Source of the DNA: Escherichia coli
GTDB lineage: Bacteria > Pseudomonadota > Gammaproteobacteria > Enterobacterales > Enterobacteriaceae
NCBI RefSeq assembly: GCF_003334335.1
Contig: NZ_QOWQ01000001.1
Reading direction: 5' to 3' (one strand)
Length of the DNA: 64,000 bases
Shown here: positions 18,001-21,000 of the stretch, piece after piece
Position numbering within the stretch: the first letter of the stretch is position 1
Layout: every line of letters starts with the position of its first letter
Made by a program: the position numbers

Positions 18001-21000
18001 GGTGCGTGGCTTGTTGAACGACGGCCTGGCAGTGGTTGGTGGTTTTAAAATTGGTGATATCGATCCTCGTGGTGAAACCGCTGATTTCACCAGCGTTTCT
18101 GATAAAGCCCGGGCGATTGGCGGCGGCGTACTTGAGGCGTTAATGATGTTGATGCATCAGGGCGTGAAAGCGACAAAAGAAGTGCTGGAAGTGGCTTAAA
18201 TGAAAATGGCCGGATGGTATTACCCACCCGGCCTGAGACTGATGACAAACGCCAAATTGCCTGATGCGCTACGCTTATCAGGCCTACAAGTGCATTGCAA
18301 TCTATTGAATTTGCGATGTTTTGTAGGACGGATAAGGCGCTCGCGCCGCATCCGGCATCAACAAAGCGCACTTACTTGACAATCTTTGGCCGGATGGTAT
18401 TACCCACCCGGCCTTTAAATTACTGACAAATCACCGTTCCTGTTTTGCCTTCAATCCCTTCTTTCGCTTTGCTCAATACGGTAATCAGTGCTTCACGACC
18501 TGCGCGAGAGCGAGCAAACGAGGCGGCAGCTTCCACTTTAGGCAGCATAGAACCTTTCGCAAAATGACCTTCTTCGATAAAGCGTTCAGCATCACTTAAT
18601 GACAGGCGATCGAGCCACTGTTCATTCTCTTTACCGAAGTTAATGGCCACTTTTTCTACCGCAGTCAGAATGATCAGCATATCGGCATCAATCATTTCTG
18701 CTAAACGGGCGCTGGCCCAGTCTTTATCGATAACCGCGCTGGCACCACGCAGATGGTTACCTTCACGAATAACAGGGATACCACCACCGCCAACGGTGAT
18801 CACCACCTGACCTGCATCTACCAGAGCTTTAACCGTTTCTTTTTCAATGATATCAACCGGTTTTGGCGAGGCAACAACACGGCGATAGCCGCGACCAGCA
18901 TCTTCTTTCAGAGTGTAACCCTGTTTTGTCAGTTGCTCTGCTTCTTGCTCGGTAAAGAACGAACCGATCGGCTTGGTCGGGTTGAGGAATGCCGGATCGT
19001 TAGCGTCGACTTCGACCTGAGTAACCAGCGTTGCTACAGGTTTATTAATGCCCCGAGAAAGCAGTTCTTCTCTTAAAGCGTTTTGTAGATCGTAACCAAT
19101 ATAACCCTGGCTTAATGCAACACAGACAGACATCGGCAGCATTGGCGAGTGCGCTTCAGTTTTTGCGGCAGCTTCAAAGGCCTGGTTAATCATGCCCACC
19201 TGCGGCCCGTTACCATGAGTGACGATAACTTCATGTCCCTGGGCAATTAAATCAACAATTGCCTGAGAAGTAATTTTTACCGCTTTCATTTGCCCGGCCA
19301 GGTCATCGCCCAGCGCATTCCCGCCCAGGGCGAGAACAATTTTCTTACTCATTTTTCCTCACTCATCATTCTTGATTGTGTATAGATCCCTGGCAGTGGT
19401 TAGAGCACGGGAGGGACAAACGGTTTGCGTCGCAGGAAACGACCTCGCCCGGCTTTGCCTGTAAAGGTGCCGTCACAGAAAATCGTTTCACCACGGGATA
19501 AGGTTCTGACAATCGCGCCCTGACAGGTAAAACCCTCCCATGGCGAGTAGTCGGCGTTGTCGTGGAGATGGCGATGCTGAATTTGTTGGCTCTGACGTGG
19601 GTCGATAATCACCACGTCGCCGTCGGAACCGGGCGCTAATAATCCTTTTTGCGGCCACAGGCCAAACAACCTGGCGGGCATTGCGCTGGTTAATTCAACA
19701 AAGCGTTCCGGTGTTATACGTCCCGTCATCACGCCACTGGAAAACAGTAACTGCATGCGGTTTTCCACACCGGGTAAGCCATTTGGGCAGCGACTGAAAT
19801 CGCCTTTAGAAATTTGCAGGCGTTGAGCCATCGAGAAGGTGCAGTGATCGGTTGCCACCACGTCAATCGCACCATCGCTGATGCCACACCACAGTTTGTC
19901 CTGCTCGCGTACGTTACGCAGCGGTGGGCTAAGAATGAACTTCATGCCATCTTCTGTATCGTAACTGCGTTCGTCCAACAGGAGATATTGTGGGCAGGTT
20001 TCAACCCAGACTGGCTGGTGATTCGCACGGGCAAGACGCAGATAATCCAGACCTAAGCCGTTAGACAGGTGCACGATATAGAGCGGGGCGTTACCGGCAA
20101 TTTGTGCCAGGTTAATCATGCGGGCGATGGCTTCCGCTTCGCATTCCAGAGGGCGACTCAAGGCATGATAGCGCGGCGCGGTTAACCCTGCGGCGATAAA
20201 TTCCGCCCGCTTGCTGGCGATAGCCGCATCATTTTCCGGGTGCACGGTGGTCAGCGCGCCGGATTCATGCAAGCGGCGTAATGCCTGCAAAACCTCGTCA
20301 TCGTTGAGTTTGTATTGATAGGTTAAATAGAGTTTAAAACTGCTCAGTCCTTCCTCGACCATCATCGGGATTTCGTCGAGGATTGCGTGATTAATGTGCT
20401 GGATCACACCGTGAAAGCTGTAATCGATGACCGCTTTATGGGCGGCATAACCACGATAAACCTCCAGTTGATGGCGTAACCGACAGCCGTTTGGGCCAAA
20501 TCCCATATGGTCAATAATGGTTGTTGTACCGCCACACGCAGCTGCGCGGGTACCGGTAAAAAAATCATCACAACTGCGCGCGATGCCGACATCAATATTG
20601 AAATGCGTATGGACATCCACGCCGCCAGGGAAAACGTAACAGCCAGTGGCATCAATTTCTTCATACGGGAGCTGCGGCGAAATATTGTTGCCCAACTGGC
20701 GAACAATCCCGCTTTCAATCAGCAAATCCTGTTTGGCTTGTCCATCTGCGTTAACGACAGTGCCGTTTTTGATCAATACGCGCATAGCAAACTCCAAAAA
20801 CCCTCCGGCGAACCGGAGGGGAATAAGTGAAGAGTAATTACTCTGTTGCCAGCCAGCTTAACGGGATTGCAGCGTACATCGCGGCACAGGTCACCAGGTG
20901 AGATTTCCAGGTTTTTTCGTTAGGTGCATGCGCTTCAGGTTCTTTACCCGGGCCAAAGCCGATCACCGGAATGCCGTGACGGCCCATGATAGATACGCCG

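What the first reader, a model, noticed from the sequence alone, without database searches (positions are those of the whole stretch)
18208..18414. Identical 27-bp hairpin elements placed right after the stops of two convergent genes, bracketing a REP pair
ggccggatggtattacccacccggcct occurs twice in direct orientation, 8 nt after the yqeB stop and directly after the yqeA stop, with two oppositely oriented REP sequences between them. The arrangement looks like a composite extragenic element whose two ends are duplicated.
Basis: seen in the sequence. Interest (0 to 1): 0.35.

Follow-up and report, generated by a model that had tools for sequence, protein, structure and literature searches.

The report
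Terminator hairpin duplicated by BIME-1 insertion
The two identical hairpins are one ordinary shared transcription terminator of yqeB and yqeA that was copied to both sides when a 152-bp REP-pair mobile element (BIME-1) landed in it. About half of this element's copies show the same whole-hairpin duplication, which constrains how these abundant repeats spread.

Summary
An exact 28-nt direct repeat (18207-18234 and 18387-18414) brackets a 152-bp segment with two inverted REPs.

It is not a dispersed repeat. In 5426 complete E. coli genomes it occurs once or twice, always at this locus.

About 1649 genomes (including K-12 and BL21) have the window's form. About 3518 have an allele exactly 180 bp shorter, with one hairpin between an A-run and a T-run, which looks like a bidirectional intrinsic terminator. 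So the 27-mer is the native yqeB/yqeA terminator hairpin, duplicated as a target-site duplication around a BIME-1 (RIP/RIB-type) insertion.

This is general. In 24-30 of 48 non-redundant BIME-1 loci from Escherichia and Pseudocitrobacter, the 150-152-bp element is flanked by a locus-specific duplicated hairpin. These repeats are 15-39 nt long, abut the element ends and are symmetric about the hairpin centre. Two more occupied/empty pairs (alx-ygjR and glmS-pstS) show one hairpin in the empty site. Non-hairpin sites carry 4-7-nt duplications.

This implies breaks at mirror positions on the two strands followed by fill-in. That does not fit a simple IS200/IS605-style single-strand insertion.

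BIME-1 presence/absence polymorphism is already known. I found no accessible description of whole-hairpin duplication, but the key older papers could not be read.

The parts
16574..18199 (+). yqeB coding sequence (541 aa); its stop codon ends at 18199
   Evidence: ORF list. Annotated yqeB in matching E. coli records.
18200..18207 (.). A-rich outer left flank (ATGAAAAT). Read on the - strand it is the U-rich tail (AUUUUCAUUU) that follows hairpin copy 1.
   Evidence: Sequence. The terminator-like scan reports the - strand stem 18233-18208 followed by ATTTTCATTT.
18207..18234 (+). Left copy of the 28-nt direct repeat (target-site duplication). The hairpin stem-loop is 18208-18233.
   Evidence: It is followed on the + strand by GAGACUGAUG, with no U-tract.
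18235..18386 (+). Inserted 152-bp BIME-1 (RIP/RIB-type) element, GAGACTGATGAC...TTGACAATCTT. It is absent from about 68% of E. coli genomes that have the locus.
   Evidence: The short allele is exactly 180 bp shorter, which equals 152 bp plus one 28-nt repeat. Homologous 150-152-bp copies occur at uspB-pitA, narP-ccmH and dozens of other loci. The ends were defined from junction logos.
18235..18252 (+). Left terminal motif of the element (GAGACTGATGACAAACGC). It forms an imperfect 12-nt terminal inverted repeat with the right end.
18258..18287 (-). Y-type REP (palindromic unit). The GTAG head is on the - strand and reads CTAC at 18284-18287 on the + strand.
   Evidence: The Y assignment rests on the reverse complement GTAGGCCTGATAAGCGTAGCGCATCAGGCA and on my recollection of the Y consensus.
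18288..18322 (.). Long linker (L motif) with an IHF-site-like CAATCTATTGAATTT
   Evidence: A near-threshold Rfam hit, ES036 (RF02751), 36.3 bits against a gathering score of 37.6, lies at 18280-18322 on the - strand. IHF binding was not tested.
18323..18357 (+). Z1-type REP with a GTAG head on the + strand (GTAGGACGGATAAGGCGCTCGCGCCGCATCCGGCA)
   Evidence: Partial Rfam naRNA4 (REP-derived) hit at 18326-18362. Homologous to the Z1 REP of the copies.
18358..18386 (+). Right terminal motif of the element (TCAACAAAGCGCACTTACTTGACAATCTT)
18387..18414 (+). Right copy of the 28-nt direct repeat (target-site duplication). The hairpin stem-loop is 18388-18413.
   Evidence: On the - strand it is followed by AAAGAUUGUC, with no U-tract.
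18414..18422 (.). T-rich outer right flank (TTTAAATTA). It overlaps the yqeA stop codon (18420-18422, TAA on the - strand).
18420..19352 (-). yqeA (carbamate kinase-like, 310 aa), convergent with yqeB
   Evidence: Annotated arcC/yqeA in E. coli records.

Best explanation
The 27/28-mer is the native Rho-independent-type hairpin that sits between the convergent genes yqeB and yqeA. In the ancestral (empty) allele it is a single hairpin with an A-run on one side and a T-run on the other, which is the layout of a bidirectional intrinsic terminator. In one lineage, now about a third of sequenced E. coli including K-12, BL21 and this window, a 152-bp BIME-1 element inserted at this hairpin. The element has a Y REP, an IHF-type linker, a Z1 REP and short imperfect terminal inverted repeats. 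The insertion left one full copy of the hairpin on each side, a 28-nt target-site duplication. All of this is shown. Inferred: the insertion used one break per strand at mirror-image positions at the foot of the hairpin, probably while it was extruded or folded. The element was joined to both breaks and gap fill-in copied the hairpin twice. The size of the duplication is therefore set by the structure and not by a fixed stagger. The enzyme is not identified. The REP-associated HUH transposase (RAYT/TnpA-REP), which cleaves C^T next to hairpin feet, is the obvious candidate, and each strand of the element carries a conserved TC^T 2 nt from its 3' end. Inferred consequence: the A-run and T-run stay outside, so each gene now first meets a hairpin without a U-tract. 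It reaches hairpin plus U-tract only 180 nt further on. Terminated yqeB and yqeA transcripts should therefore carry hairpin-REP-REP-hairpin 3' UTRs that overlap each other by about 200 nt.
For: 1. The 28-nt repeat is exact and is not expected by chance.
2. The 28-mer is locus-specific: 5167 genomes hold 6815 places, with a maximum of 2 per genome, so 1648 genomes have two copies. An independent count of the occupied left junction gives 1649 genomes.
3. The short allele is exactly 180 bp shorter and reads AATGAAAAT-hairpin-TTTAAATTAC with one copy. One such allele (strain WEM25) is 100% identical to the window in the aligned flanks.
4. The insert has a single origin. It is at least 99% identical in 1630 genomes and 95-99% in 18, and every other genome's best paralogue is below 95%. 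Occupied haplotypes are 99.1-100% identical to the window, and empty ones span 98.1-100%.
5. The pattern is general. Of 48 non-redundant loci with both element ends, 26 have flank-to-flank direct-repeat scores above the 99th percentile of a mismatched-flank null. In 24 loci that score above 20 on re-alignment of the trimmed flanks, the left copy ends 0 nt before GAG in 19, and the right copy starts 0-2 nt after TCT in 23. Repeat length is 15-39 nt (median 21.5), mean MFE is about -12.5 kcal/mol, and there is an outer A-run in 19/24 and an outer T-run in 17/24. The repeat is centred on the hairpin within +/-1 nt in 20/23. Sixteen of the 24 lie between convergent gene ends.
6. There are two more occupied/empty pairs. 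At alx-ygjR, E. albertii is occupied and E. coli is 177 bp shorter with one hairpin. At glmS-pstS, E. albertii has the glmS terminator on both sides and E. coli has one.
7. Non-hairpin insertions carry anchored 4-7-nt duplications in 6/16 loci against 4% in the null (P=2e-5).
8. Only the outer flanks look like terminator tails.
9. Literature: BIME-1 elements are present or absent among isolates (PMC1187871). RAYT cleaves C^T near REP feet (PMC3333891 and PMC3479197).
Against: No outgroup species was examined for the yqe locus, so gain versus loss rests on haplotype diversity only. The occupied allele also occurs in O145:H28 strains, so its distribution is patchy. That requires either recombination or repeated loss. 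About 40-50% of family members lack a detectable hairpin duplication, so hairpins are a preferred target and not an obligatory one. No close donor copy exists. The left junction shows C before the T(s) only in part of the loci (36% C at position -2 in the logo), so the C^T rule of RAYT is not clearly met. IS200/IS605-type HUH transposition is described as making no target duplication (PMC3333891). Termination at either hairpin has not been measured, and the + strand hairpin with its TTTAAATT tail did not pass the simple terminator scan.
Confidence: 0.85

Rival explanations
1. One reading: the 27-mer is a member of a dispersed hairpin repeat family, or is the terminal repeat of a composite extragenic element that moves as hairpin-REP-REP-hairpin.
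For: The two copies are identical, directly oriented and bracket a known repeat.
Against: The 28-mer occurs at most twice per genome and only at this locus in 5426 E. coli genomes. It is absent from 125 other fetched loci, including about 120 BIME-1 copies. Other BIME-1 copies are flanked by different, locus-specific hairpins. The empty allele retains the hairpin.
Confidence: 0.02
2. Reversed polarity at this locus: hairpin-BIME-hairpin is ancestral in E. coli, and the 641-bp allele arose, perhaps repeatedly, by precise deletion between the 28-nt direct repeats. On this view the polymorphism records loss, not a recent gain. The duplication would still date from an older insertion.
For: A 28-nt exact repeat around a palindromic 152-bp segment is a good substrate for slippage or recombination. 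An empty allele exists on flanks 100% identical to the occupied haplotype (WEM25). The occupied allele is scattered (K-12, BL21, O145:H28). At glmS, the two diverged repeat variants of E. albertii each occur as single-hairpin alleles in E. coli, as deletion at different crossover points would give. 'Excisions of a whole BIME-1' is the wording I recall from the abstract of Bachellier 1997 (from memory, not read).
Against: Occupied haplotypes are the less diverse set (99.1-100% against 98.1-100%). The insert is nearly invariant. The B2 strain E2348/69 carries an empty allele with a hairpin variant (C to T) that was not seen among the two-copy rows sampled. This fits a single insertion into one hairpin variant. 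No outgroup was examined.
Confidence: 0.15
3. The second hairpin copy arose by a separate local duplication (replication slippage or unequal exchange) after a BIME-1 had inserted next to the terminator without any target duplication, as expected for IS200/IS605-like single-strand insertion.
For: HUH Y1 transposases of the IS200/IS605 family make no target duplications (PMC3333891). Some family members have a hairpin on one side only (for example L045, L016, L113 and L101).
Against: No one-hairpin occupied intermediates exist at yqe: 1648 two-copy genomes against 1649 occupied junctions. The same precise abutment of both copies to the element ends recurs at 24 or more independent loci. The duplication is symmetric about the hairpin centre. 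Short anchored duplications occur at non-hairpin sites. Independent secondary duplications would not be this regular.
Confidence: 0.05
4. Two independent terminators, one evolved for each convergent gene, with a REP pair between them.
For: Each hairpin lies within 5-8 nt of a stop codon.
Against: The copies are 28/28 identical and in direct orientation. Each gene-proximal hairpin lacks its U-tract on the strand of that gene, and the U-tracts sit on the distal copies. The empty allele has one hairpin serving both genes.
Confidence: 0.01

Closest known systems
BIME-1 / RIP / RIB elements of E. coli (Y REP - L linker with IHF site - Z1 REP, with A and B end motifs; Gilson, Bachellier, Hofnung; Oppenheim 1993; Boccard & Prentki 1993)
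   Same: The architecture, size (about 150 bp), single-unit organisation, extragenic position at 3' ends of transcription units, and presence/absence polymorphism among isolates.
   Different: Nothing about the element itself differs. What the accessible literature does not describe is that its insertions duplicate a whole terminator hairpin. The older primary papers could not be read, so this may already have been noted.
REPINs mobilised by RAYT / TnpA-REP (Bertels & Rainey 2011; Nunvar 2010; Ton-Hoang 2012)
   Same: A REP doublet in inverted orientation, treated as a non-autonomous mobile unit. The candidate enzyme cleaves C^T beside hairpin feet, and each strand of the element has a conserved TC^T 2 nt from its 3' end.
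   Different: Published models (ssDNA circle, rolling-circle-like amplification) do not predict target duplications. Here a duplication is present and its size follows the hairpin.
MITEs with terminal inverted repeats and target-site duplications
   Same: Short imperfect terminal inverted repeats ([G/C]AGA[C/T]TG[A/C]TGAC), many copies, no coding capacity, flanking direct repeats, and empty sites with one repeat copy.
   Different: The duplication length is not fixed. It is 4-7 nt at ordinary sites and 15-39 nt at hairpins, always symmetric about the hairpin.
Bidirectional intrinsic terminators between convergent genes (from my own knowledge: Ju et al. 2019, Nat Microbiol)
   Same: The empty allele and the reconstructed empty sites of other loci have an A-run, a GC-rich stem-loop and a T-run.
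   Different: In the occupied allele the A-run and T-run are split between two copies, so neither copy is a complete bidirectional terminator.
Mobile elements that target terminator or palindromic structures: class C group II introns inserting after intrinsic terminators, IS186 duplicating G/C-rich palindromic targets, and CRISPR repeat duplication on spacer integration (all from memory, as analogies only)
   Same: They recognise a stem-loop or palindromic target. For IS186 and CRISPR, a palindromic segment is duplicated through cuts at its two borders on opposite strands.
   Different: The enzymes and sequences are unrelated. No homology was tested or implied.

Membership tests
BIME-1 (RIP/RIB) | Exactly two palindromic units (one Y, one Z1) in inverted orientation, with the GTAG heads facing the linker | tested here: met
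   A CTAC-ended REP lies at 18258-18287 and a GTAG-headed REP at 18323-18357. They are homologous to the REPs of other copies. The Y/Z1 typing rests on remembered consensus sequences and on the definition in PMC3333891.
BIME-1 (RIP/RIB) | A long conserved L linker carrying an IHF site | tested here: inconclusive
   The conserved linker motif CAATCTATTGAATTT is present and is shared by 120 or more copies. It is one mismatch from the IHF consensus as I remember it. Binding cannot be tested here.
BIME-1 (RIP/RIB) | A single unit (not tandemly amplified) with conserved external end motifs | tested here: met
   There is one unit of 152 bp. The end motifs GAGACTGATGAC and GTCAGCAATCTG(A) are conserved across the family.
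BIME-1 (RIP/RIB) | [quoted passage not shown] | tested here: met
   It lies between convergent stop codons. There are 1649 occupied and about 3518 empty genomes. Literature.
Intrinsic (Rho-independent) bidirectional terminator (the 27-mer in its single-copy state) | A GC-rich stem-loop immediately followed by a U-tract on both strands | tested here: inconclusive
   On the - strand a 10-bp stem followed by ATTTTCATTT passes the scan. On the + strand the stem has an A/C mismatch and the tail TTTAAATT, and it was not called. The B2 variant restores a perfect stem.
Intrinsic (Rho-independent) bidirectional terminator (the 27-mer in its single-copy state) | Transcripts end at the hairpin | not testable with these tools
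   No 3'-end data for yqeA or yqeB were found.
Transposable element with target-site duplication (MITE-like) | Flanking direct repeats of target sequence, and an empty site with one copy | tested here: met
   for this locus. for two further loci. for the family.
Transposable element with target-site duplication (MITE-like) | Terminal inverted repeats | tested here: met
   The repeats are imperfect, with about 9 of 12 consensus positions matching between the two ends.
Transposable element with target-site duplication (MITE-like) | Mobilisation by an identified transposase | not tested
   No enzyme was linked to the element here. RAYT is a candidate from the literature only.
IS200/IS605-type single-strand 'peel and paste' insertion | No target-site duplication, with insertion 3' of a short specific target sequence | tested here: not met
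   A 28-nt duplication is present here and duplications of 15-39 nt or 4-7 nt elsewhere. The left junction base before the T is C only in part of the loci.
   There are at most 2 copies per genome, all at the yqe locus.

The most novel reading that the evidence does not exclude
BIME-1/RIP elements preferentially integrate into intrinsic terminator hairpins and duplicate the whole hairpin. The target-site duplication has a length set by the DNA structure (15-39 nt, symmetric about the hairpin), compared with 4-7 nt at unstructured sites. If this has not been described before, it is the first direct footprint of how REP doublets insert. It requires coordinated breaks on both strands at the feet of an extruded or folded hairpin. 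That is incompatible with a plain IS200/IS605-like single-strand mechanism, and it shows that these elements systematically rebuild the 3' ends of convergent genes.
Probability: 0.4. Interest if true: 0.7.

Novelty: new variant of a known kind. Interest (0 to 1): 0.55.

Why it matters
REP/BIME sequences make up about 1% of the E. coli genome. Yet their way of spreading 'remains to be elucidated' (PMC8266576), and in-vivo insertion has not been captured.

A natural occupied/empty polymorphism with a clean, structure-sized target duplication, seen again at dozens of loci, gives a concrete and testable insertion geometry and a preferred target (bidirectional terminators).

It also has practical consequences:
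- Each such insertion splits a shared terminator into two hairpins that each lack a U-tract on the gene-proximal side.
- Both 3' UTRs become about 180 nt longer and now contain REP stem-loops.
- The convergent transcripts become complementary over about 200 nt.
- Strains that differ only by the insertion (K-12 against WEM25-like strains) are natural isogenic tests of what REPs do to termination and mRNA stability.

For annotation, a hairpin right after a stop codon next to a BIME-1 should not be assumed to be the functional terminator.

Tried and rejected
1. Dispersed-family idea. A blastn search of a 30-mer containing the repeat against 5426 E. coli genomes found only the yqe locus, so it was rejected.
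2. Other copies in the window. Searches for the element core, the Y REP and the left end motif found only this one.
3. Rfam. It gave only REP-derived near- or sub-threshold hits (ES036 at 36.3 bits against a gathering score of 37.6; naRNA4 partial) and no terminator or sRNA family for the 27-mer.
4. K-12 annotation. The returned table lists only CDS features here, with no repeat feature.
5. Replicate polymorphism at barA-gudD (L067). The element is present in all E. coli rows sampled, so it is an old fixed insertion and uninformative.
6. Replicate at the zapB locus (L063). The query matched only on one side and was unusable.
7. Donor search. No paralogue is more than 95% identical, so the insertion could not be dated from a donor.
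8. RAYT C^T rule at the junctions. It is consistent at this locus (GGCC^TGAG), but only part of the family has C before the junction T. GC stems followed by T-runs give C^T by construction, so this is not decisive.
9. Literature. Nine full-text searches and about 15 papers gave no description of hairpin or terminator duplication. Gilson 1986, Boccard & Prentki 1993 and Bachellier 1997 are not held.
10. 3'-end data for yqeA/yqeB. None was found.
11. Independent-terminator and secondary-duplication models were rejected for the reasons given under the rival explanations.
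Full report
OBSERVATION. The sequence GGCCGGATGGTATTACCCACCCGGCCT occurs exactly twice in the window, at 18208-18234 and 18388-18414 on the + strand. No shuffle gave a match, even with three mismatches allowed. The exact direct repeat is 28 nt (18207-18234 and 18387-18414, spacing 180). The flanking ORFs are yqeB (16574-18199, +) and yqeA (18420-19352, -). Copy 1 starts 8 nt after the yqeB stop. Copy 2 ends 5 nt before the yqeA stop. Each copy folds into a stable hairpin: -16.7 kcal/mol on the + strand (A/C mismatch in the stem) and -21.3 kcal/mol on the - strand (10 contiguous pairs). Two REPs in opposite orientation lie between the copies.

WHAT THE 27-MER IS NOT. It is not a dispersed repeat. 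A 30-mer containing it matches 5167 of 5426 complete E. coli genomes at 6815 places. Every genome has one or two places and never more.

THE POLYMORPHISM. A megablast search with window 17900-18720 shows two allele classes. One is the full 821 bp. The other spans 641 bp, exactly 180 bp shorter. Alignment of three short alleles (SCEC020001, E2348/69, WEM25) shows ...TAAATGAAAAT-GGCCGGATGGTATTACCCA[C/T]CCGGCCT-T[T/A]AAATTACTGACAA.... That is one hairpin, an A-rich left flank, a T-rich right flank and no REPs. WEM25 is 100% identical to the window over the aligned flanks. Two independent counts agree. The repeat search gives 6815-5167 = 1648 genomes with two copies. The occupied left junction is found in 1649 genomes. 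About 3518 genomes are empty and 259 lack the locus. K-12 MG1655 is occupied, with hairpins at NC_000913.3 3012400-3012425 and 3012580-3012605.

The 152-bp insert is nearly invariant among occupied genomes: 1630 are at least 99% identical and 18 are 95-99% identical. No other genome has a paralogue above 95%. Occupied haplotypes are 99.1-100% identical to the window, while empty ones span 98.1-100%. This fits a single insertion into one variant of the hairpin, although I did not examine outgroup species.

WHAT THE INSERT IS. Window 18235-18386 reads, in order:
- GAGACTGATGACAAACGC (left end motif)
- Y REP
- a linker containing CAATCTATTGAATTT
- Z1 REP headed by GTAG
- ...GCGCACTTACTTGACAATCTT (right end motif)

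This is the BIME-1 architecture (also called RIP or RIB) as defined in PMC3333891. Rfam gives only REP/BIME-derived near-threshold hits.

GENERALITY. Two homologous copies that turned up (uspB-pitA and narP-ccmH) are also bracketed by two similar hairpins. Those hairpins are specific to each locus, with an A-run outside on the left and a T-run outside on the right.

Of 120 cores with enough flank, 53 have both end motifs, giving 48 non-redundant loci with elements of 150-152 bp. I aligned 50 nt of left flank against 50 nt of right flank. In 26 of 48 loci the score exceeds the 99th percentile of a null made by pairing flanks from different loci. Junction logos define the ends as GAGACTGATGAC...GTCAGCAATCTG(A), an imperfect 12-nt terminal inverted repeat.

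For the 24 loci that score above 20 when the trimmed flanks are re-aligned:
- The left repeat copy ends exactly at GAG in 19.
- The right copy starts 0-2 nt after TCT in 23.
- Repeat length is 15-39 nt (median 21.5) and mean hairpin MFE is about -12.5 kcal/mol.
- The outer left flank is A-rich in 19 and the outer right flank is T-rich in 17.
- The duplicated segment is centred on the hairpin to within +/-1 nt in 20 of the 23 loci whose repeat copies abut the element ends.
- Reconstructed empty sites look like textbook bidirectional terminators, for example gaaaaaAAACGGCTCTGTAAGGAGCCGTTttttctg.
- Sixteen of the 24 lie between convergent gene ends.

Loci without a hairpin duplication still carry anchored exact duplications of 4-7 nt in 6 of 16 cases, against 4% in the null (P=2e-5).

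REPLICATE EMPTY SITES. At alx-ygjR, E. albertii has GAAAGGAATACGCAGATGTGTTCCTTT|element|GAAAGGAATACGCAGACGTATTCCTTT. E. coli is 177 bp shorter (150 + 27) and has the single hairpin. At glmS-pstS, E. albertii has the glmS terminator on both sides of the element and E. coli has one hairpin. The barA-gudD copy is fixed in E. coli and is uninformative.

MECHANISM. It is shown that the insertion is associated with duplication of the entire target hairpin, and that the size of the duplication follows the hairpin. It is inferred that one break occurs per strand at mirror-image positions at the feet of the hairpin, that the element is joined to both breaks, and that fill-in copies the hairpin on each side. 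The 4-7-nt duplications at unstructured sites fit a small intrinsic stagger that spans the base of an extruded hairpin.

The enzyme is unknown. RAYT (TnpA-REP) cleaves C^T beside REP feet on single strands. Each strand of the element carries a conserved TC^T 2 nt from its 3' end, and a GC stem followed by a T-run offers C^T at its 3' foot on both strands. However, C precedes the junction T in only part of the loci. Also, IS200/IS605-type transposition is described as making no duplication. I therefore give the RAYT-specific version low confidence (about 0.3), while the target-duplication reading has high confidence.

CONSEQUENCES (inferred). On the yqeB strand, copy 1 is followed by GAGACUGAUG and only copy 2 is followed by UUUAAAUU. 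On the yqeA strand, copy 2 is followed by AAAGAUUGUC and only copy 1 is followed by AUUUUCAUUU, which is the one site called by the terminator scan. Each gene therefore meets its hairpin plus U-tract 180 nt later than in the empty allele. The 3' UTRs contain both REPs and are mutually complementary. In a full read-through RNA, the MFE structure pairs the two hairpin copies with each other around the element. That is a thermodynamic prediction only.

COMPARISON WITH WHAT IS KNOWN. BIME-1 presence/absence among isolates is established (PMC1187871, citing Bachellier 1997), as is the location of these elements at the 3' ends of transcription units (title of Boccard & Prentki 1993). None of the accessible papers mentions duplicated terminator hairpins or any target duplication for REP/BIME elements. 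The dissemination mechanism is stated to be unresolved. Several older primary papers could not be read. [quoted passage not shown]

VERDICT. The element is a known kind. The locus-level finding is an ordinary BIME-1 insertion polymorphism. The structure-sized duplication of terminators across the family is the interesting part, and it may be new.

Noticed in passing
L009:2250-2650 (E. albertii), L128 and L129 (E. coli glmS-pstS, the attTn7 region): The two diverged copies of the glmS terminator that flank the E. albertii element (loop GTAA against loop TTTC, 4 differences) each occur as the single hairpin in different E. coli strains: K-12 J53 has the left-copy variant and EC1515 the right-copy variant. 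This would fit excision from an occupied ancestor at different crossover points, or allelic recombination.
   Followed up: partly
L025, L026, L069-L074: Exact BIME-1 cores occur on very short contigs (261-720 bp) or odd contigs in assemblies labelled Desulfosporosinus, Bacteroides MAG, Comamonadaceae MAG, Collinsella MAG, Alkalicoccobacillus and Methylobacterium. These are most likely enterobacterial contamination of those assemblies.
   Followed up: no
window 18280-18322 (-) and 18326-18362 (+): There is a near-threshold Rfam hit to ES036/CssrF (36.3 bits, gathering score 37.6) over the BIME-1 linker, and a partial hit to naRNA4 over the Z1 REP. These 'sRNA' families appear to be REP/BIME-derived sequence.
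   Followed up: no
window 18197-18426, both strands: In the full read-through RNA, the predicted MFE structure pairs hairpin copy 1 with copy 2 (each arm with the complementary arm of the other copy), enclosing the whole element in one long-range stem (-87 and -96 kcal/mol, z about -6). Local hairpins would form first during transcription.
   Followed up: no
L002:509-534 (E2348/69) against window 18208-18233: The B2 strain has CCCATCC instead of CCCACCC in the 3' arm, which turns the + strand A/C mismatch into an A-U pair. About 1449 genomes carry a one-mismatch variant of the hairpin. The insertion sits on the mismatch-bearing variant.
   Followed up: partly
summary (one plasmid record): One of the 6815 places of the 28-mer lies on a record typed as a plasmid. 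It may be a chromosomal fragment or a mis-assigned contig.
   Followed up: no
window 18167-18191 and 18449-18470: Imperfect inverted repeats (13-16 nt, 81-85% complementary) link the 3' coding ends of yqeB and yqeA across the intergenic region. They are probably chance.
   Followed up: no
L006 (NC_000913.3 3012394-3012613): The annotation table returned for K-12 MG1655 lists no repeat feature in the yqeA-yqeB spacer, although it holds a complete BIME-1.
   Followed up: no
L049, L045, L016, L113, L101: Some family members have a terminator-like hairpin on one side only, or only a half-stem duplicated (L049: GGGCTTT). These may be decayed duplications or a different insertion outcome.
   Followed up: partly
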